Origin: a virus
Taxonomy: Duplodnaviria > Caudoviricetes
Length of the DNA stretch: 64,000 nt
Strand: one strand, 5' to 3'
IMG/VR virus record: IMGVR_UViG_3300037467_003067
Span: 96,001 to 160,000 of that record
Under the pieces are notes generated by a model that worked only from the letters and a program-made list of their open reading frames with translations, had not been told where the DNA came from and did not search any database. Of this stretch, positions 3,363 to 24,481 are shown piece by piece (the stretch's first letter is position 1; each line of letters opens with the position of its first letter). Position numbers and translations under genes: made by a program.

Positions 3363-4952
3363 ATGAGATTTTTGGAGTGGATAATCTTGACTGAAAACAC
3401 GACTGCTTCCCAATTCCTCAAGCAGCCCCAAAATGCGGAGTATGCCCGCTCGGTCAAGAATACGGTCATTAAGTTTGTATCGACTCGGTTCAACGGCTTC
3501 AACCAAAATAGTCTGAGCCGGGTAGTGAACTGGTTCGTGAAGGAATTGATTGTCCAGGGGATTAGTCTGGATCGCGTGTTAACGGTCTTGCAAAACATGT
3601 GGCAAAACATCGGTGATTATATCAGCGGAAATGTCAACAATAATCAGTTGATGAGTAAGTTGAACCTGGTAGATTATCGCTATCAGACCGCCGTTCAGGA
3701 CAGTGAAGAATGGCACGAGTCGCTAGCACAGAAGCAACGTGGGAAGGGGGCTGAGGGGCGTGTGGTCGTATCGCTGAATAACGTGCCTGGTTTCAAGGGA
3801 TGGAATTGGGTGGCTCTTGACAAGAGCTACTGCGGGCAGGAAGGCGATGCCATGGGGCATTGTGGAAATATCGAAAACAAGGGTAACATCTTGTCGTTGC
3901 GAGACCCTGAAGGCTATCCCCACCTAACGTTCATCAATCATCAGGGCGTCTTGGGTGAGATGAAAGGTCGCGGCAATTCGAAGCCAGTCCCCAGGTATTA
4001 TCCGGCGATCGTGAAGTTATTGTTGAGCAATGAGATCGGAGCAATTCGCGGTGGAGGGTATGCTCCCAAGAACAATTTTGACCTATCTGATCTTCCCGAA
4101 GATATGTACACGATGGTCAAATCACAAAAGCCTTATATCGATAATCCTAATGCATTTGAAAAAAAGCATCATGAAATTATTCAAGGTTTGACCAAAAAGA
4201 CTCGTGGGCAACTTTTGAAAAATTCGAATGTTGAGAATGTTGGACAAACAGTTGCGGACTTGGTCAACAGGAATTATGATTCGCCTCTAATATATGACAC
4301 CGAGACAAAAGACAAATCTCCAGAGCAGGTGTACAAGAATAATATTTGGAAGATGTATACGGAATTATTGAATGCGGTATATTCTCGGGCTCGCACGTCT
4401 CATCCCGAGGAATTATTGGCTTGGATGGACAAGATGGTTGAGTCGTTCGTGTCGGCTATGGTCGAGCGAGATCACAAGACATGGAAGGAGTCACCCCCGC
4501 AGGATAAACAATTTTTCCCGCAACTTAGCAATATCGTGAAGCTTGACGAGATGGTTTATCGACTTTCGCACCAACAGCCCGAGATCATGCGTTCGGCACC
4601 GAAGCGGAGCCGGTTTGGTAATTGGTCATCGTACATTAAGGCATTGCGTCGGTTCCTGGATCATGAAGGGTACGAGTTGCCTGGTTATCGTCCAGGGAAC
4701 CATCAGATCAGCTATGAGTTCAATCAGAAAATGGCTGAAGAAGTAGCTCGTCAAGGCAAGGGCATCGTGGACCTTGTCAATCAGGCTTATGCCGACATGG
4801 ACCCGAGGTTGAGTGCTGGTCCGTTGGCGCGTCACCAATTCACGCGAGAGAACCCCAATGATTTCTTCTATGGCAAAGACCCTTCATTGGGGTTGACCAG
4901 GAATAGTCGAAGACGGTTGGATCGCATGGAGCGAGAATATGGCGATGAATGA
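3363..4952 (+). CDS. putative internal head protein with PcfJ-like domain
   Basis: N-term MRFLEWIILTE; EGDAMGHCGN...ILSLRD..GYPHLTF...EMKGRGNSKP; paralog of 14207-15862. Confidence 0.65.
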   Translation: MRFLEWIILTENTTASQFLKQPQNAEYARSVKNTVIKFVSTRFNGFNQNSLSRVVNWFVKELIVQGISLDRVLTVLQNMWQNIGDYISGNVNNNQLMSKLNLVDYRYQTAVQDSEEWHESLAQKQRGKGAEGRVVVSLNNVPGFKGWNWVALDKSYCGQEGDAMGHCGNIENKGNILSLRDPEGYPHLTFINHQGVLGEMKGRGNSKPVPRYYPAIVKLLLSNEIGAIRGGGYAPKNNFDLSDLPEDMYTMVKSQKPYIDNPNAFEKKHHEIIQGLTKKTRGQLLKNSNVENVGQTVADLVNRNYDSPLIYDTETKDKSPEQVYKNNIWKMYTELLNAVYSRARTSHPEELLAWMDKMVESFVSAMVERDHKTWKESPPQDKQFFPQLSNIVKLDEMVYRLSHQQPEIMRSAPKRSRFGNWSSYIKALRRFLDHEGYELPGYRPGNHQISYEFNQKMAEEVARQGKGIVDLVNQAYADMDPRLSAGPLARHQFTRENPNDFFYGKDPSLGLTRNSRRRLDRMEREYGDE

Positions 4953-11633: not shown

Positions 11634-11668
11634 GAGACCTTCTTGGTCTTGAAAATATATTGTCTTAG

Positions 11669-11744
11669 TAGCACCAGGGGGATTCGAACCCACCACTGTA
11701 CGGATTTTAAGTCCGTTGCCTCCTACCAATTGGGCTATGGTGCC
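11669..11744 (-). tRNA. tRNA-Leu(TAA), short variable loop, no encoded CCA
   Basis: GGCACCA/TGGTGCT acceptor, ACGGA-CT-TAA-AA-TCCGT anticodon arm, GGTTCGAATCC T-loop, discriminator A. Confidence 0.85.
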
Positions 11745-19253: not shown

Positions 19254-19589
19254 TCAACTAAGTCTGCTTCCCGAAGCCACTTCGACTGTGGGCGAACAGA
19301 GGGCAAATCTGCCCTGATCATCCTTTGCCGCCAGGACCATGCCGTGGCTCTGTTCTCCCCGCAAGACCCGAGGCTCCAGATTGGCGACGATGACGATCTG
19401 CTTGCCGATCATGGCAGCAAGGTCTTCGGCGTTGTAGTAGTCACGAATCCCGGCGACGATCTGGCGTTCGTTATCTGGTCCAAGCAAGACCTTGAGCAGT
19501 ACGAGTTTGTCGGCTTTGGGATGCGGAGTTGCCTCTAAGATGGTGACGACTCGCAGATCAATCGCTTGGAATTGCTCGAAAGTGATCAC
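19254..19589 (-). CDS. stand-alone tRNA-binding OB-fold (Trbp111/CsaA/MetRS C-terminal type)
   Basis: IDLRV..ILEATPHPKADKLVLLKV.LG...RQIVAGIR.YY...GKQIVIVANLEPR.LRGEQSHGMVLAA. Confidence 0.88.
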   Translation of the reverse strand: MITFEQFQAIDLRVVTILEATPHPKADKLVLLKVLLGPDNERQIVAGIRDYYNAEDLAAMIGKQIVIVANLEPRVLRGEQSHGMVLAAKDDQGRFALCSPTVEVASGSRLS

Positions 19590-19602: not shown

Positions 19603-20709
19603 TTAAATGCTCACGGCTTTCCAGCCCAATGTTTCGCCTGCACGGTACGGGCGAAATTCGTGGATCGAATCAGGAACAGTCCAGGATTCTTTGACTAACC
19701 TAGTTCTCTTTTGACAAGTCAACAAACCATAGAAATTTCGACCATTCCTCGACACGAACTTCTCGAACCGTTCAATCCGGATCTCGTCCAAGCCCTTGAT
19801 TGCCGGTCCTGGATTAAACGCCTCCCAGACCGATTCTAGCAGACACGGAGAATTGAAGACTCCGGCGCACCCTTCATCACATTCTTTCTTGCTGATCTCA
19901 TGAGGAGCGGTGTCTGATCCCAAGAAGAAGCAACCCTCTGCCTTTATTGCCGCTTCCACGAGTGCTTTTTGGTCACGCTTGTACTTAACCACCGGCATGC
20001 AGTAAAGGTGTGGTCGGAGTTTTCCCGCGAGTAGGTTGTCCAGTGAGTTTTGAAGGTGGTGCGGGGTGATGGTTGCGGCGATCCTGCCGGGAGCCCAGCG
20101 ATGCCACTCTCTAACCTTTTCCACAGCTTCCTTGGTCGTGATGTGTTCCAAAACGATGCGGAGTTTGGAAAACGCTTGGAGGTAATAAGGAACCAACTGG
20201 AGAAAGTTGGATTCTCGTTCCAAGATTTCGTTCTGTTCTTCTATGACGTTCTCGATCTCGCCGTGAAAGGAAAGCACCATACCGAGTCTTTCGATCTCTG
20301 CGATGGTTTGTAGAAAAAGGGAATTTTTCCTAGGGCTGTAGAGAAGTCGTACTAAGTCGGCATGAGGGGTGCCGTCGTGGGCATTGGTCGTAACGCCCTC
20401 AGGATAGACCTTGAAGCCCACAGCCCCCGCCTTGTAGACCTCGCGAACGGTCTCGGGCGTGGTCGCAGTCAACATCTTGGCGAGGATATGGGGACGGCAA
20501 TCGCCGAGGTGAGGTTTGATCTGCTCGTCGTAGGTGAGGACGGTCTCGCCGTTCCAGACAGGAGGTGTTGTGTTGGGCATGACTATGGCATCACCACAGA
20601 CCCGACCCGTATAGGGGGCGACCTTGGCTATGGTCTCGCCTTGCCGCAAGTGGGTGTGGGCGTCGAAGGGAGCCTCAATCGTGAAGTCAGTGATGTATTC
20701 GACAGGCAT
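19603..20709 (-). CDS. pyrC: dihydroorotase (E. coli-type)
   Basis: DAHTHLR, MPNT.PP, FKVYPEGVTTN, HGE, VLEHITT, ATITPHHL, CMPVVK, FLGSDTAPH. Confidence 0.9.
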   Translation of the reverse strand: MPVEYITDFTIEAPFDAHTHLRQGETIAKVAPYTGRVCGDAIVMPNTTPPVWNGETVLTYDEQIKPHLGDCRPHILAKMLTATTPETVREVYKAGAVGFKVYPEGVTTNAHDGTPHADLVRLLYSPRKNSLFLQTIAEIERLGMVLSFHGEIENVIEEQNEILERESNFLQLVPYYLQAFSKLRIVLEHITTKEAVEKVREWHRWAPGRIAATITPHHLQNSLDNLLAGKLRPHLYCMPVVKYKRDQKALVEAAIKAEGCFFLGSDTAPHEISKKECDEGCAGVFNSPCLLESVWEAFNPGPAIKGLDEIRIERFEKFVSRNGRNFYGLLTCQKRTRLVKESWTVPDSIHEFRPYRAGETLGWKAVSI

Positions 20710-20726
20710 GGTGATGTCCTTGAAAT

Positions 20727-20766
20727 GAAAAGACCGCCCGCCAAAATACCCTTATTGGCGGGCGGT
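20727..20766 (-). terminator. intrinsic terminator closing the protein+ncRNA unit
   Basis: ACCGCCCGCCAA/TTGGCGGGCGGT 12-bp stem followed by CTTTTCATTTC. Confidence 0.75.
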
Positions 20767-20774
20767 ATAGGTTT

Positions 20775-20946
20775 GTGCTTATTCGCTTGTCCGTGGCTTC
20801 CGTTTAATCCAGTCCTGAGTCTGAGCCAGGCGCTTAACCTTTAAGCTACCCCCGCTAATATGGACCAAATTTTTAAGAGCGGGGGACGAGAATCGAACTC
20901 GTAATCTCCTGGGTTTGAGACTGGAACTCGACCGGACAATAAGCAC
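20775..20946 (-). ncRNA. circularly permuted tRNA-like RNA module 2 (YrlA-like)
   Basis: CCAGG-AGATT-ACGAG-TTCGATT-CTCGT-CCCCCGC [linker] GCGGGGG-TA-GCTT-AAAGGTT-AAGC-G-CCTGG; outer helices TCCAGTC/GACTGGA, TGTCCG/CGGACA, GTGCTTATT/AATAAGCAC. Confidence 0.85.
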
Positions 20947-20961
20947 AGTAAGGAGTCTGTT

Positions 20962-21103
20962 GGCGATAGTCTCAGCCTGATTTTGCCCTTTACGCTCTGC
21001 CGCTGGCGTACCCCGGCGTGGTCTAGTGGGAATGCCGGGGGAAGGATTCGAACCTTCGACCTAAGGGACAATTTAAGTCTAAGTCTAAGCCTAAGACTGC
21101 GCC
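20962..21103 (-). ncRNA. circularly permuted tRNA-like RNA module 1 (YrlA-like)
   Basis: CCCTT-AGGTC-GAAGG-TTCGAAT-CCTTC-CCCCGGC [16-nt linker] GCCGGGG-TA-CGCC-AGCGGCAG-AGCG-TA-AAGGG; outer helix GGCG.AGTCTTAG/CTGAGACT..CGCC. Confidence 0.82.
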
Positions 21104-21137
21104 TCTAACCGCAGGAAAGTTCTGCGGTTAGTTTGAT

Positions 21138-21360
21138 GGGGACGAACCGTTCTTCTGAACTTACGGAAATCTAAGGGAACCTTAGCCCTGTCAGATTCTT
21201 GGACTCACCACAGCCTTATTTCTAAGGTCTTACACGGTGATAACCTAGTCTTTCAACTAGCTTCTCAAGCGTGAATTCCCGTAGAACTTACGGTACTTAA
21301 TCTGAAAGAGTATTTCCCTCTTAAATTTCCGAAGGTTTTTCTTCAACTGTTCGAAACCCC
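21138..21360 (-). ncRNA. multibranch structured RNA domain with GAAA tetraloops
   Basis: Closing GGGG..CGAAC/GTTCG..CCCC; 12-bp CGGAAATTTAAG/CTTAGATTTCCG; TCAGATT/AATCTGA; hairpins CTAGTT-GAAA-GACTAG, CCTTA-GAAA-TAAGG, CCGTA/TACGG; no ORF. Confidence 0.65.
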
Positions 21361-22109
21361 TATTTCACGAGGTCTCCGAAGACGAAGCCGAGGACAGCAT
21401 CACCACACTTCTTCTGCTCGACCTCGATGCTGTTGGCTTCCTCGCGAGCGACCTTGATCGCGTCCTTGAGAGCCCGGACGCGCTTGAGAGCATTGTTTCG
21501 GTCTTGGATGCGGATGGCTCCTGATTTCTTGGTGTTGTTCCAGACCCCGATCGGCTTGTCCACATGCTGAACTTGAACCTGTGCCGGGTGCTTGTCGGTC
21601 GCTTTGGCGAGTTCCAAGACTTCGGCGACCTTGGCAAGTTTCTGGGTCACGTAAGGATCGGTCGTATAGCCGCCTATCTCGGGATCGGGCTTCCAATTCT
21701 CGGAGGGATCGAGCGTCGGGAGCTTGGCAATGAACGTCTCCAGATCGGTGACTTGCTTCTCCAAGAAGAGCAAATTGGTCACCGGAACACCGGAGAGGAC
21801 GACCTTGCCGTCGACCTTGATGTCAGCTTTGGCGATCGTGTTCCCGATGTCTTGAGTGAGGACAACATCCAGCATGGGAGCCAGAGCCGATTTCACTTCG
21901 GAAAGGACATTCGGAATCGTATTCTGGACCCGTTTGATCTCAGGAGGTAGGTGGTTGGCTTGTCCGTCCTCAAACGGCTCGTACCTCCGGTATAAGCCCG
22001 TGAGAGAATCCGGTTTGAGACGAAGGTGTGCGTCCGTAAGGACTTTCTGGGCATTGGTCTTTTGCCCCGAAACCACCGCCACAATCTGGCAAAGCTTTGC
22101 CTTACTCAT
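21360..22109 (-). CDS. conserved hypothetical protein (249 aa), putative partner of the downstream RNA
   Basis: KLCQIVAV..G.K...LPPEIKRVQ...AKADIKVDG...VPVTNLLFLEKQ...LPTLDP...ATDKHPAQV...SGA...AIKVAREEAN; resembles an uncharacterised bacterial/phage family (from recall, not searched). Confidence 0.85.
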   Translation of the reverse strand: MSKAKLCQIVAVVSGQKTNAQKVLTDAHLRLKPDSLTGLYRRYEPFEDGQANHLPPEIKRVQNTIPNVLSEVKSALAPMLDVVLTQDIGNTIAKADIKVDGKVVLSGVPVTNLLFLEKQVTDLETFIAKLPTLDPSENWKPDPEIGGYTTDPYVTQKLAKVAEVLELAKATDKHPAQVQVQHVDKPIGVWNNTKKSGAIRIQDRNNALKRVRALKDAIKVAREEANSIEVEQKKCGDAVLGFVFGDLVK

Positions 22110-22169
22110 GGTCCCCAGAGTCCTCAAATCTTGAATTTGTTGAAAACTGAACTTGATGCTGATGATCTT

Positions 22170-22198
22170 ATTGTATCTGGCTTAGACAACTTTGTAAA
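22170..22198 (-). promoter_or_regulatory. sigma70-like early promoter of the protein+ncRNA unit
   Basis: TTTACA-N17-TACAAT; insulated by an upstream hairpin at about 22213-22250. Confidence 0.72.
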
Positions 22199-22258
22199 CC
22201 AAGTTTTTTGAATTCCTGTCCGGTATTGCGTCACCTCTACCGGACAGGAATAAAAGGG

Positions 22259-22702
22259 TCAGGCTTGGGGAGAAGGAGCCTGATCCTTTGTCTGCTTCTG
22301 TCCTCGTTTCTTGCGAGGCTCGAACAGGTAGGGACACAGGGCGCGGACGATCGGCTCGTGGTATTCGCGAGGAAGCTTGGCATTTCGCACCAGTCGCTTC
22401 GTCGCGTAGCGGATGCCAGTTTTTTCGTCGAACACGTCCGGCGGTTTGCAGCAAGCCCGCGACACGCAGGTCGTCTTCTGCCCCGGAGAAATGGAAAGCT
22501 CGATCCGCACCTCGGGTACGGAAAAGGGAACTGTGACCAGACAGCCGGTCGTGTCTCGGCACCATCGTCCGAAAGCACGAACGCGAGTGTCTACCGATCC
22601 CATTCCGAACAAGATGACCGCCTGAGCGGTTTTCCCATCAGGTAGGGCAATCTTGACGATTTGATTCGCAGGTGGTTTCCACTTCTTGCCATTTTTGCTC
22701 AT
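22259..22702 (-). CDS. hypothetical basic protein
   Basis: 147 aa, GGGAG SD, own promoter and downstream hairpin. Confidence 0.6.
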   Translation of the reverse strand: MSKNGKKWKPPANQIVKIALPDGKTAQAVILFGMGSVDTRVRAFGRWCRDTTGCLVTVPFSVPEVRIELSISPGQKTTCVSRACCKPPDVFDEKTGIRYATKRLVRNAKLPREYHEPIVRALCPYLFEPRKKRGQKQTKDQAPSPQA

Positions 22703-22852: not shown

Positions 22853-24481
22853 ATGGACACAACCGAAGATATCAGCCGATTTTCTCACCCCAAGATGGCA
22901 TACTACCGCTACGTCTACCGCAACAGTCCGAAATGGGATGGCAAGCAATCGCTGGAAAACAAGACCGTCATCGTCTACGGCGAACAGGGTTATGGCGACA
23001 TCATCCAATTCGTCCGCTACATCCCCTCCCTAATGCATCAGAAATGCCGCGTAATCGTCCACTGCCCCCAACCCCTTCACCGGCTCTTCGGAGTTAGCAG
23101 CATCGGTCACGAATGGATCGACCGCGACATCGAGGAATTACCCGACCACGACTTTCACATCCCTTCCATGAGCATGCCATTCAAGGGACTAACTGAAACT
23201 CCATCCCCTTATCTCAAAGTCTCTGAAAAAAGAAACGACATCCAAGGCGAATTCAAAGTGGGGATCGCCTGGGAAGGCAATCCCGAACATTCGAACAACT
23301 TCCTGAGGAGTTGCCACCTCTCCCTCTTCCAGCAAATTCAGGAATTGCCCCATGTGACAATGTACATGCTACAAGAAAAAATCAACATTCCAGAATTCGC
23401 CGATGTCAACGAGAACTTCCAACTCTTCTCCGTGAATAAGACCGATTTCTACGATACCGCAACCCTCATCAATTCCATGGACCTGATCATTTCGGTAGAC
23501 ACCTCAGTCTTACATTTAGCAGGTGCCTTGGGCAAGGAAAATGTCTACGGACTTCTCTCCAATCCCTGCGATGCCCGCTGGGAAGTCAAAAATTGGTATC
23601 CCAATACAACCCTTATCCACGACCAAGACGGCAACTGGACCAATACATTCCGAACCCTGGAAAGGGTTGCTGCTTCCAAGAATACAGCAGTCAAGATACA
23701 TCGCCAATTCAAAACTAAAGAAAACTACGACAGCATCCTCGTCACGGGCGGCATCGGCGACTTCATCGCCCTCGAAAGTCACATGAATAATGACCTCAGG
23801 AAAAGGATCAAGCGGATATATCTTGCTACCCGTGCCGATCAAACAATCGAGCAATTGGCTCGACCGATCTTCAACGAAGCCGATATCGTCAAGATATTTT
23901 CCGACTACACAAAGATGACGTTCTATCAGAAGACCGAGGTCGCCGCCCATCTCAAAGCAATCAAATGCCCTTTCCCATCCGATTGGCGTTCGGTGGAAGA
24001 TTGGAGCATCCTCGTCAAATTCGACGAGATCAACCGAGGCAAGTATCGCTACCACGGCACCAAAATTTTCGATCACATCAATGATTGCTTTGATTGGGAC
24101 AATTATATCGTTGTTTGTCCCATGACCAATACCGAGAGAGATACGGGACGTGACTTCGACCAGAAAGACTGGCAGGATACAATTAATCGCCTAGAAATTA
24201 CCAATAAGACCGGAATTGTCATCGCCGGGGAACGAGTGGAAGTCCCGAATCATCACAAGCTAATCAATCTCTCAGGACAAACTTCCCTGTTCGAATCGAT
24301 CGGCATTCTGAAGAAAGCAACGGGTTACATCGGCATCGATTCGTTCCTGTCAATTTTGGCAGCCCAGAGATTCAATCCCCCGAACATCCTCGTGAAAAGC
24401 ATCAATCCACATCTATACAAGTATTCTAATATTTACTATGCTCCACACGAGGACCGAAGTTTTATCAAGCCGAGGCTGTAA
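22853..24481 (+). CDS. two-domain GT-B/GT9-like glycosyltransferase
   Basis: EQGYGDIIQFVRY, VGIAWEGNP, DLIISVDTSVLHLAGALG; second domain TGGIGDF...INLSGQTSL...IGIDS. Confidence 0.75.
   Translation: MDTTEDISRFSHPKMAYYRYVYRNSPKWDGKQSLENKTVIVYGEQGYGDIIQFVRYIPSLMHQKCRVIVHCPQPLHRLFGVSSIGHEWIDRDIEELPDHDFHIPSMSMPFKGLTETPSPYLKVSEKRNDIQGEFKVGIAWEGNPEHSNNFLRSCHLSLFQQIQELPHVTMYMLQEKINIPEFADVNENFQLFSVNKTDFYDTATLINSMDLIISVDTSVLHLAGALGKENVYGLLSNPCDARWEVKNWYPNTTLIHDQDGNWTNTFRTLERVAASKNTAVKIHRQFKTKENYDSILVTGGIGDFIALESHMNNDLRKRIKRIYLATRADQTIEQLARPIFNEADIVKIFSDYTKMTFYQKTEVAAHLKAIKCPFPSDWRSVEDWSILVKFDEINRGKYRYHGTKIFDHINDCFDWDNYIVVCPMTNTERDTGRDFDQKDWQDTINRLEITNKTGIVIAGERVEVPNHHKLINLSGQTSLFESIGILKKATGYIGIDSFLSILAAQRFNPPNILVKSINPHLYKYSNIYYAPHEDRSFIKPRL

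What the first reader, a model, noticed from the sequence alone, without database searches (positions are those of the whole stretch)
20727..22200. Candidate new ribonucleoprotein system: conserved unknown protein followed by ~630 nt of structured RNA with tandem permuted tRNA mimics
Seen in sequence: one insulated minus-strand unit made of an upstream hairpin, a TTTACA-N17-TACAAT promoter, a 249-aa ORF, ~630 nt with no credible ORF that folds into three domains, and a GC-rich terminator. Two domains are complete tRNA cloverleafs in permuted order. Established: YrlA-class Y RNAs have this T-arm/closed-acceptor/D-arm topology and normally sit beside Ro60/Rsr. No Ro60-like gene is in this window, and the adjacent protein shows no TROVE/vWA features that I can see. 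Inference: the protein is a non-Ro partner of tRNA-mimic RNAs expressed early in infection, for example as a decoy against tRNA-targeting defence or as a scaffold for host RNA enzymes.
Basis: partly seen in the sequence, partly recalled or inferred. Interest (0 to 1): 0.93.

Follow-up and report, generated by a model that had tools for sequence, protein, structure and literature searches.

The report
DUF7873 gene with twin tRNA-mimic RNA
A large phage carries an unstudied protein gene followed by a folded RNA with two back-to-front, anticodon-less tRNA look-alikes; the same gene-plus-RNA pair recurs in phages and bacteria independently of Ro60, and I found it in no paper or RNA library, so it is probably an undescribed RNA-protein system built on tRNA mimicry.

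Summary
A sigma-70-like promoter precedes a 249-aa ORF (Pfam DUF7873). It is followed by 633 nt of strongly folded, ORF-free RNA with two permuted tRNA-like heads, then an intrinsic terminator.

This is one member of a widespread module, which this scan has already flagged on other DNA (250 notes, at least 147 genomes). I re-tested it independently:
- 129 of 135 DUF7873 loci have strict permuted heads 3' of the gene.
- A covariance model hits beside the gene in 79 of 80 bacterial loci and nearly all viral ones.
- Among 151 Streptomycetaceae genomes, 95 of 96 with the gene have the RNA adjacent, against 1 of 55 without it.
- No other neighbouring gene is conserved.
- 38 genomes with the module lack Ro60, and Ro60 has its own small Y-like RNA elsewhere.

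Head 1 copies tRNA-Leu. The scaffold carries YUNARR hexamer repeats and an AUCGA//UUAAACG loop. DUF7873 folds confidently but matches no known structure.

Specific to this window are an extra 5' domain of about 230 nt plus a hairpin, and hexamers identical to the phage's own tRNA-Leu anticodon loops.

Binding, processing and function are untested. "Complete cloverleafs", "early expression" and "defence decoy" are not supported.

The parts
22215..22248 (-). Upstream hairpin: 11-bp stem, 12-nt loop. It follows the preceding ORF and insulates the unit.
   Evidence: Read from the sequence; coordinates.
22170..22198 (-). Sigma-70-like promoter, TTTACA-N17-TACAAT.
   Evidence: 10 of 12 matches, the only minus-strand promoter-like site in 20400-22700.
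21360..22109 (-). DUF7873 protein gene, 249 aa.
   Evidence: PF25283: E 7e-81, 271.9 bits against a cut-off of 27. More than 1000 homologues. AF2 model: pLDDT 94.3, pTM 0.80.
21132..21359 (-). Extra 5' RNA domain, a multi-branch fold rich in UAAG/UUAG. It is not part of the family core.
   Evidence: Fold z = -5.2 for 21104-21362. Other loci have only a short hairpin here. No relatives with this domain were retrieved, so it is untested by covariation.
21105..21131 (-). Perfect 10-bp hairpin just 5' of the core. Many family members have a hairpin at this position.
21072..21103 (-). P1 5' strand (GGCG, within 21095-21103) and the 5' hexamer tract CUUAGG-CUUAGA-CUUAGA-CUUAAA (21095-21072).
   Evidence: Family tract: in-phase U.A every 6 nt, 3.45 against 1.30 in shuffles; logo Y-U-N-A-R-R. 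P1 strands covary: the cognate partner ranks best. CTTAG occurs 6 times in the RNA against 0.6 expected.
20985..21067 (-). Head 1, tRNA-Leu-like. Anticodon-stem strand CCCUU; variable loop; T arm 21057-21041; acceptor 3' strand 21040-21034; A73; 16-nt closing loop; acceptor 5' strand 21017-21011; D arm 21008-20993; AAGGG.
   Evidence: T and acceptor helices covary. D arm is Leu-like in 67 of 73 loci. R1 partial hit at 20972-21066, 36.1 bits.
20962..20981 (-). 3' hexamer tract (AUCAGG-CUGAGA-CUA) and P1 3' strand (CGCC).
20774..20950 (-). Head 2 on its basal helix. T arm 20902-20886; acceptor stem 20885-20879 with 20855-20849; 23-nt closing loop; D arm 20846-20831. The conserved internal loop has UCGAG (within 20932-20919) opposite GGAUUAAACGG (20810-20800). 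Basal strands are 20946-20932 and 20793-20775.
   Evidence: Covariance model R1: 95.4 bits, E 3e-24, full length 1-171. Covariation counts.
20723..20766 (-). Intrinsic terminator: 12-bp GC-rich stem, 10-nt loop, then CUUUUCAUUU.
   Evidence: A terminator sits at the same place in relatives.

Best explanation
The unit is a member of a widespread, uncatalogued two-part module: the DUF7873 protein gene followed on the same strand by a structured non-coding RNA.

Shown:
- The RNA core (window 21107-20753) holds two anticodon-less, circularly permuted tRNA look-alikes about 140 nt apart on a conserved scaffold.
- The scaffold has YUNARR hexamer repeats on both sides of head 1, and an AUCGA//UUAAACG internal loop in the helix below head 2.
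- Head 1 copies tRNA-Leu: Leu-type D arm, A73, G+1, U8.
- Gene and RNA are gained and lost together, and no other gene travels with them.
- The module occurs with or without Ro60.

Inferred:
- In this phage, gene and RNA are made as one transcript from the sigma-70-like promoter to the terminator.
- DUF7873 binds the non-tRNA scaffold (hexamer tracts and/or the UUAAACG loop).
- The two heads present a tRNA elbow plus a 7-bp acceptor stem to enzymes that read tRNA shape without the anticodon: RNase P, CCA-adding enzyme, T- and D-loop modification enzymes, possibly LeuRS.
- The particle would therefore work like Ro60-YrlA, with the protein on the stem and the tRNA mimic as a tether or gate, but with an unrelated protein.

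The cellular target is not known.
For: - Protein: DUF7873 only. High-confidence fold with no known relative.
- Gene implies RNA, pattern scan: strict permuted heads within 1 kb 3' of the gene in 129 of 135 loci, against 23 hits in 1.75 Mb of control sequence.
- Gene implies RNA, covariance model: R1 full-length hits lie next to the gene in 79 of 80 genome loci and in all informative viral loci except one lineage.
- Distant relatives: 6 of 6 cultured phages at 27-45% protein identity have heads in an unannotated gap of about 450 nt.
- Reciprocal test in 151 Streptomycetaceae: 95 of 96 genomes with the gene have the RNA adjacent; 1 of 55 without the gene has it.
- Only DUF7873 is conserved among 160 neighbourhoods.
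- Structure: 39 of 43 and 30 of 31 pairs carry compensatory changes; 90.2% of cells are paired against 60.7% in shuffles.
- Ro-independence: 38 genomes with the module have no TROVE hit. TROVE lies within 2.5 kb of the gene in only 1 of 58. At least 14 genomes have a separate short Y-like hit about 1 kb from TROVE.
- Precedent: a 7-bp-acceptor YrlA is cut by RNase P and receives CCA (PMC4201824, read).
- tRNA-like detail: NCCA follows the acceptor 3' strand in 31 of 93 copies of head 1.
Against: - There are no transcript, binding or processing data for any member.
- DUF7873 is not a basic protein (median pI 6.3) and shows no recognisable RNA-binding fold.
- One viral lineage has the gene without the RNA within 4 kb (L084/L086).
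- One Streptomyces genome has a decayed RNA without the gene.
- One locus has the RNA upstream of the gene (L027).
- The hexamer tracts could be structural rather than protein sites. The duplex test was inconclusive (p 0.21).
- The extra 5' domain of this window has no comparative support.
Confidence: 0.6

Rival explanations
1. It is an ordinary Ro60/Y-RNA system. The RNA would be a YrlA-class Y RNA bound by a Ro60 encoded elsewhere in the unsequenced 41% of the phage, and DUF7873 would be incidental.
For: - The topology is YrlA-like.
- The weak full-length Rfam YrlA alignment covers head 1 (16.6 bits).
- The 436-kb relative phage encodes a 641-aa TROVE protein with no Y RNA within 3 kb of it.
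- TROVE is somewhat commoner in Streptomycetaceae with DUF7873 (58 of 96) than without (22 of 55).
Against: - The YrlA score is far below the gathering score of 69.
- No TROVE in the 298.6-kb record.
- 38 genomes with the module lack TROVE.
- TROVE genes have their own adjacent short Y-like RNA in at least 14 genomes.
- The RNA tracks DUF7873 almost perfectly: 95 of 96 against 1 of 55.
Confidence: 0.06
2. The RNA acts only in cis, as a 3' UTR module of the DUF7873 mRNA. The tRNA-like heads would serve as RNase P/Z processing or stabilising signals (tRNA punctuation), with no function in trans.
For: - Same strand, gene first, and in this window a single promoter and terminator.
- 7-bp acceptor stems with G+1 make good RNase P sites (PMC4201824).
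Against: - About 330 nt of conserved architecture is far more than a processing signal needs: two heads at fixed spacing, hexamer tracts and a UUAAACG loop, all with heavy covariation.
- One locus has the RNA upstream of the gene.
- A promoter is annotated between gene and RNA in phage FBKp24.
Confidence: 0.1
3. The RNA is a sponge or decoy for tRNA-directed enzymes or toxins, and DUF7873 is an enzyme or chaperone that acts on it rather than a stable partner.
For: - Head 1 mimics tRNA-Leu.
- The YUNARR hexamers coincide with anticodon-loop positions 32-37. In this window they equal the loops of the phage's own tRNA-Leu(UAG/UAA).
- The module sits in phage tRNA arrays.
- The protein has invariant polar residues: Y43, N90, D122, T171, H174, Q177, S196, N226.
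Against: - The commonest hexamer, CUGAAG, has G at the position of A37, unlike a real tRNA-Phe loop.
- The repeats are linear, not stem-loops.
- No hit in PADLOC.
- The module is a single-copy chromosomal gene in most Streptomycetaceae.
Confidence: 0.15
4. The heads are working translation RNAs: permuted tRNA genes matured by circularisation, or a two-piece tmRNA-like tagger.
For: - Weak match to permuted cyanobacterial tmRNA (19.6 bits).
- NCCA after the acceptor 3' strand in a third of head-1 copies.
- Hexamers read as Leu-Lys/Arg codons.
Against: - No anticodon loop; ARAGORN finds no tRNA or tmRNA.
- The acceptor stem lacks G3:U70.
- The tmRNA score is far below the gathering score of 70.
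- Closing loops can be as short as 4 nt, which leaves no room for a processed CCA end.
- No conserved in-frame stop was seen.
Confidence: 0.03

Closest known systems
YrlA-class bacterial and phage Y RNAs with Ro60/Rsr (Rfam RF02553; Chen et al. 2014, PMC4201824; Wang et al. 2018, bioRxiv 10.1101/312249)
   Same: - ncRNA encoded beside its presumed protein partner.
- tRNA-like module in the order T arm, loop-closed acceptor stem, D arm, with the anticodon position replaced by a stem.
- A 7-bp acceptor stem, as in M. smegmatis YrlA, which RNase P cuts.
- Present in both bacteria and phages.
   Different: - The partner is DUF7873, not a TROVE/vWA ring.
- Two heads at fixed spacing on one RNA of about 350 nt.
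- Hexamer tracts and a UUAAACG loop in place of the Ro-binding helix.
- Rfam score 16.6 against a gathering score of 69.
- Occurs in genomes without Ro60, and alongside Ro60's own Y-like RNA.
Two-piece (circularly permuted) tmRNA (Rfam RF01851 and relatives)
   Same: Permuted order: T arm, 3' acceptor strand, intervening loop, 5' acceptor strand.
   Different: - No alanine identity pair.
- No tag reading frame with a stop.
- Closed short loops.
- 19.6 bits against a gathering score of 70; ARAGORN negative.
Tandem (dimeric) identical tRNA genes
   Same: The stretch from the T arm of copy 1 to the D arm of copy 2 has exactly the head's order, with NCCA and a spacer in between. Model R1 cross-hits such pairs. 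This is a plausible evolutionary origin.
   Different: Real tandem tRNAs keep their anticodon arms and full 5' and 3' halves. Here only the junction survives, embedded in a conserved scaffold.

Membership tests
DUF7873 (Pfam PF25283) | Score above the Pfam gathering cut-off over the full profile. | tested here: met
   271.9 bits against 27; profile positions 2-242 of 244. 44-65% identity to 60 homologues.
DUF7873-linked twin tRNA-mimic RNA (uncatalogued; defined here by model R1 and alignment A4) | Lies directly 3' of a DUF7873 gene on the same strand and ends at a terminator. | tested here: met
DUF7873-linked twin tRNA-mimic RNA (uncatalogued; defined here by model R1 and alignment A4) | Two permuted heads (5-bp T stem with a UUCRANY loop, a 7-bp loop-closed acceptor stem, a D arm) about 140 nt apart after subtracting loop 1. 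| tested here: met
   T1 at 21057, T2 at 20902, loop 1 of 16 nt, giving 139. Family median 140.
DUF7873-linked twin tRNA-mimic RNA (uncatalogued; defined here by model R1 and alignment A4) | Hexamer tract with at least 3 in-phase U.A repeats 5' of head 1, and the AUCGA//UUAAACG loop below head 2. | tested here: met
   Four CUUARR repeats at 21095-21072; GGAUUAAACGG at 20810-20800. R1 full-length hit, 95.4 bits.
YrlA / Ro60 Y RNA (RF02553) | Reaches the Rfam gathering score. | tested here: not met
   16.6 bits against 69. No YrlA at gathering in the window or in 17 related loci.
YrlA / Ro60 Y RNA (RF02553) | Encoded next to a Ro60/TROVE gene. | tested here: not met
   - No TROVE in the 298.6-kb record, which is 59% complete.
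- Across the family, TROVE lies within 2.5 kb in only 1 of 58 genomes that have both.
- 38 genomes with the module have no TROVE.
YrlA / Ro60 Y RNA (RF02553) | tRNA-like domain in the order T arm, closed acceptor stem, D arm. | tested here: met
YrlA / Ro60 Y RNA (RF02553) | Conserved GNCGAAN0-1G motif on the 5' strand of the Ro-binding stem (PMC4201824). | tested here: not met
   The window has GUCGAAG, but at the variable-loop/T-stem junction of head 1. It is not conserved in alignment A4.
YrlA / Ro60 Y RNA (RF02553) | Bound by Ro60 in vivo. | not testable with these tools
   Needs immunoprecipitation.
Two-piece tmRNA | G3:U70 alanine identity pair, a tag ORF, and detection by ARAGORN or Rfam. 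| tested here: not met
   The acceptor stems GCCGGGG/CCCCGGC and GCGGGGG/CCCCCGC have no G:U pair. ARAGORN finds none. cyano_tmRNA scores 19.6 against 70.
Functional permuted tRNA genes (Cyanidioschyzon type) | A complete anticodon stem-loop recoverable after de-permutation. | tested here: not met
   The anticodon-stem strands open into the scaffold helices.

The most novel reading that the evidence does not exclude
The RNA is a disassembled tRNA-Leu. [quoted passage not shown] The YUNARR repeats supply multiple copies of the Leu-type anticodon-loop sequence.

After RNase P opens the closing loop, head 1 would be CCA-tailed and perhaps leucylated. DUF7873, a protein of new fold, would use or guard this tethered tRNA-Leu surrogate. 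That would give phages and actinomycetes a Ro-independent particle that senses, buffers or exploits the tRNA-Leu pathway.
Probability: 0.08. Interest if true: 0.95.

Novelty: new variant of a known kind. Interest (0 to 1): 0.8.

Why it matters
If DUF7873 and this RNA form a particle, it would be a second bacterial and phage ribonucleoprotein class built on tRNA mimicry, independent of Ro60.

- It is widespread: at least 544 hits among species-representative genomes, 465 viral contigs and 75 cultured phage records.
- Its protein has a fold with no known relative.
- Cultured carriers make it directly testable: Gordonia, Klebsiella, Ralstonia, Vibrio and Rhizobium phages, and most Streptomyces.
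- It could explain what tRNA-like heads on Y-type RNAs are for, which is still open for YrlA.
- It would correct genome annotation. The region is left blank, or mis-called as small ORFs or an odd suppressor tRNA.

Tried and rejected
- **Rfam:** at gathering and at E up to 10, only weak cyano_tmRNA and YrlA matches and noise.
- **Literature:** 'DUF7873' appears in no held paper, and no paper on such an RNA was found.
- **Fold and profile searches for the protein:** nothing above noise.
  - Foldseek against PDB: best hit Rogdi, E 3.8e-3, TM 0.25.
  - VIA wide search: best Z 7.9, to helical designs.
  - BFVD: TM 0.26.
  - Also PDB sequence profile, ESM Atlas, PADLOC and NCBIfam.
- **Near relatives for the 5' domain:** The metagenome scan gave only relatives at 45% identity. 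The shared motif GAGTCNAAGAATCTGA returned 66 viral hits, about the chance level by my own estimate. The 5' domain therefore has no covariation test.
- **Pairing between the 5' and 3' hexamer tracts:** cognate partners are no better than non-cognate ones (p 0.21). Inconclusive.
- **Hexamers over the gene's RBS or 5' UTR:** no family-wide enrichment (1.32 against 1.29). The window scores 3, which is marginal.
- **Conserved neighbours:** none. The window's tRNA_bind, PyrC-like and 147-aa genes occur in no other locus.
- **RtcB and class-Ia aaRS in the record:** absent.
- **R1 partial hits of about 106 nt** turned out to be tandem identical tRNA genes.
Full report
**1. What is there**

The window is G000:C1:96001-160000 of a 298.6-kb IMG/VR record. 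The record is classed as a provirus and estimated 59% complete. The unit lies on the minus strand.

- A hairpin (22248-22215) follows the preceding ORF.
- A sigma-70-like site, TTTACA-N17-TACAAT (22198-22170), is the only such site on that strand in 20400-22700.
- A 249-aa ORF runs from the ATG at 22109 to the stop at 21360.
- After it come 633 nt without a credible ORF, ending in a 12-bp GC-rich terminator (20766-20723).
- The RNA folds far better than shuffles: z = -5.0 for the whole stretch and z = -5.2 for the first 259 nt alone.
- ARAGORN finds no tRNA here, and no Rfam family reaches its gathering score.
- The only weak Rfam matches are to permuted cyanobacterial tmRNA (19.6 bits against 70) and to YrlA (16.6 bits against 69).

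**2. The two heads**

Each head runs 5' to 3' as follows:
- a 5-bp T stem with a UUCGAAU or UUCGAUU loop;
- immediately after it, a 7-nt acceptor 3' strand and a discriminator;
- a closing loop of 16 or 23 nt;
- a perfectly pairing acceptor 5' strand;
- U8 and a D arm;
- a short stem at the anticodon position that opens into the scaffold.

They are therefore three-armed tRNA mimics, not complete cloverleafs.

**3. The protein**

- The ORF is Pfam DUF7873 (E 7e-81).
- It has more than 1000 homologues in actinomycetes, Planctomycetota, myxobacteria, spirochaetes and many viral contigs.
- It is strongly conserved: 52% mean column identity over 61 sequences. Invariant residues include Y43, N90, D122, W139, T171, H174-P-A-Q177, S196 and N226.
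- AlphaFold2 gives a confident model (pLDDT 94.3, pTM 0.80): five long helices packed against a long twisted beta-hairpin sheet.
- No structure or family search gave a convincing relative.
- It is not notably basic (median pI 6.3; the window's copy 8.9).

**4. Gene and RNA belong together**

*Gene implies RNA.*
- A strict pattern scan found at least one permuted head within 1 kb 3' of the stop in 129 of 135 DUF7873 loci, usually two. There were about 230 hits in 0.13 Mb of flank, against 23 in 1.75 Mb elsewhere in the same loci.
- I built a covariance model (R1: 171 positions, 31 pairs) from head 2 plus its basal helix.
  - It hits full-length beside the gene in 79 of 80 bacterial loci; the eightieth is cut by a contig end.
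  - It hits in all informative viral loci except one lineage, L084/L086, which has nothing within 4 kb even with filters off.
  - The window scores 95.4 bits (E 3e-24) at 20774-20950.
- Distant relatives behave the same way. All six cultured phages inspected have permuted heads in an unannotated gap of about 450 nt after the gene. Their proteins are 27-45% identical to the window's. They are Klebsiella vB_KpM_FBKp24, Ralstonia phiRSL1, Vibrio D505, Rhizobium RHph_TM61 and RHph_Y1_11, and Gordonia Phendrix.

*RNA implies gene.*
- In 151 Streptomycetaceae genomes the gene is present in 96.
- 95 of these have the RNA adjacent. The exception has only a gene fragment.
- Of the 55 genomes without the gene, one has the RNA. 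There head 1 is decayed and no gene remnant is found.

*Nothing else travels with them.* All-against-all clustering of ORFs from 160 neighbourhoods found only DUF7873 conserved; the next cluster occurs in 23 loci.

**5. The RNA structure is under selection**

- On a 35-sequence alignment, RNAalifold predicts 43 pairs, 39 of them with compensatory changes.
- For the 31 pairs of R1:
  - 90.2% of cells are paired, against 60.7% in shuffles;
  - 30 pairs show double changes;
  - the covariation score is 0.797, against 0.243 in shuffles and at most 0.231 for slid registers.
- The closing helix of head 1 (P1) also covaries.
- T1-to-T2 spacing, after subtracting loop 1, has a median of 140 nt. The window's is 139.

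**6. Conserved single-stranded features**

- 5' of head 1 lies a tract of 3-5 hexamers with U and A fixed every 6 nt. The logo is Y-U-N-A-R-R. In-phase count is 3.45 against 1.30 in shuffles.
- Two or three more hexamers follow the D arm of head 1.
- The helix under head 2 has an internal loop, AUCGA opposite UUAAACG. This loop is lost in the most distant relatives.
- The window has CUUAGG-CUUAGA-CUUAGA-CUUAAA and GGAUUAAACGG.
- Whether the two tracts pair with each other is unresolved (p 0.21).
- The claim in earlier notes that hexamers also cover the gene's RBS does not hold family-wide.

**7. Identity of the heads**

Head 1:
- Its D arm is closest to tRNA-Leu in 67 of 73 distinct loci, although Leu makes up only 45 of 251 reference tRNAs.
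- It especially resembles short (74-77 nt) phage tRNA-Leu genes with the D arm UAGCCCAAYUGGCAGAGGC. One of these lies in this window at 11668-11744.
- It has A73 in 78 of 93 loci, G+1 in 81 of 93 and U8 always. NCCA follows the acceptor 3' strand in 31 of 93.

From established knowledge, A73 and tertiary elements, not the anticodon, are the main LeuRS identity elements in E. coli. This was not tested here.

Head 2 is heterogeneous.

R1 also cross-hits junctions of tandem identical tRNA genes. Together with the NCCA-plus-spacer loops, this suggests the heads arose from dimeric tRNA genes. That is inference.

**8. Not a Ro60 system**

- No TROVE in this record, although the record is incomplete.
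- The 436-kb relative phage has a TROVE ORF 228 kb from its DUF7873. No Y-like RNA lies beside that ORF, so Ro60 cannot be excluded for this particular lineage.
- Family-wide, the link is to DUF7873.
  - TROVE occurs in 58 of 96 Streptomycetaceae with DUF7873 and in 22 of 55 without.
  - 38 genomes have the module but no TROVE.
  - Only one genome has the two genes within 2.5 kb.
  - At least 14 genomes show a separate short T-arm/acceptor hit about 1 kb from TROVE, the expected place of Ro60's own YrlA.

**9. What is special in this window**

- The RNA is 633 nt rather than about 350.
- An extra, independently folding 5' domain (21359-21132) and a 10-bp hairpin (21131-21105) precede the core.
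- I could not retrieve close relatives to test this domain.
- The relative L124 instead carries an insertion of about 280 nt inside head 1's closing loop.
- The four hexamers equal positions 32-37 of the phage's own tRNA-Leu(UAG) and tRNA-Leu(UAA) anticodon loops.
- The record has 16 tRNAs, eight of them Leu, and a CCA-adding-type enzyme. It has no RtcB and no class-Ia aaRS.

**10. Reading**

Shown: a conserved, self-contained gene-plus-RNA module whose RNA carries two tRNA mimics, independent of Ro60.

Inferred: co-transcription; protein binding to the scaffold; the heads engaging enzymes that read tRNA shape.

- M. smegmatis YrlA, which also has a 7-bp acceptor stem, is cut by RNase P and CCA-tailed (PMC4201824). 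The same is a concrete prediction here.
- A role purely in phage counter-defence is not indicated, because most Streptomycetaceae carry one chromosomal copy.
- Function remains unknown.

**11. Prior notes of this scan**

The scan has flagged this module before: 250 notes in at least 147 genomes. My tests were run independently. They agree on the pairing, on Ro-independence, on the hexamer track and on the Leu-like head. They do not support the RBS claim.

Noticed in passing
window 19254-19589 (-): A 111-aa tRNA_bind (PF01588, CsaA/Trbp111-like) protein lies two genes downstream of the RNA on the same strand. It is absent from all other DUF7873 loci, so it is not a conserved partner, though it could be a local one.
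   Followed up: partly
window 19603-20709 (-): A 368-aa gene directly after the terminator has a dihydroorotase-like metal-binding motif and a weak Amidohydro_1 match (E 0.004).
   Followed up: no
window 11668-11744 (-): A short (77 nt) tRNA-Leu(UAA) without a long variable arm. Its D arm (UAGCCCAAUUGGUAGGAGGC) and ..CAGUG variable loop are nearly the family consensus of mimic head 1. Similar 74-77-nt Leu tRNAs occur in other phage arrays near DUF7873.
   Followed up: partly
G000:C1:215006-221180 (outside the window): The phage tRNA cluster is dominated by class II types: Leu x7, Ser x3 and Tyr, plus Phe and Val. With the window's own tRNA-Leu, the record has eight Leu out of 16 tRNAs in all. 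A PolyA_pol/CCA-adding-type ORF lies at 4.7-5.2 kb.
   Followed up: no
window 21072-21095 (-): The four hexamers CUUAGG/CUUAGA/CUUAGA/CUUAAA equal anticodon-loop positions 32-37 of the phage's own tRNA-Leu(tag) (CTTAGGA, CTTAGAC) and tRNA-Leu(taa) (CTTAAAA, CTTAAAC). Family-wide the logo YUNARR fits an anticodon loop with A35, but the commonest hexamer, CUGAAG, does not fit a real tRNA-Phe loop.
   Followed up: partly
L241 2554-4479 (G005:C1:153053-154978): The 436-kb relative phage encodes a 641-aa TROVE (Ro60-like) protein. No YrlA or R1-like RNA lies within 3 kb of it.
   Followed up: partly
G099:C78:16942-16997, G131:C10:970535-970592 and at least 12 more: Short R1 partial hits (T arm plus closed acceptor stem, 55-60 nt) lie about 1 kb from TROVE genes in Streptomycetaceae. 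They are probably Ro60's own YrlA-type RNAs.
   Followed up: partly
L084 and L086 (gene at 3998-4732); L027 3620-3924; L233 (G046:C11:242848-243012): Exceptions to the rule. One viral lineage has the gene but no RNA within 4 kb. One Planctomycetota locus has the RNA upstream of the gene. One Streptomyces genome has a decayed RNA without the gene.
   Followed up: yes
L235 3515-3594 (Klebsiella phage vB_KpM_FBKp24, MW394391.1 46041-46120): The annotated 'tRNA-OTHER / tRNA-Sup-TTA' overlaps mimic head 2 (T arm at 3567). It is probably a mis-call of the permuted element.
   Followed up: partly
L234 2019-2170 (G021:C11): Two identical tandem tRNA genes score 42 bits with Rfam YrlA and about 48 bits with R1. 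Dimeric tRNAs are a false-positive class for permuted-tRNA models.
   Followed up: yes
window 22853-24481 (+): A divergently placed 542-aa ORF has a glycosyltransferase family 9 (heptosyltransferase) segment (E 7e-9).
   Followed up: no
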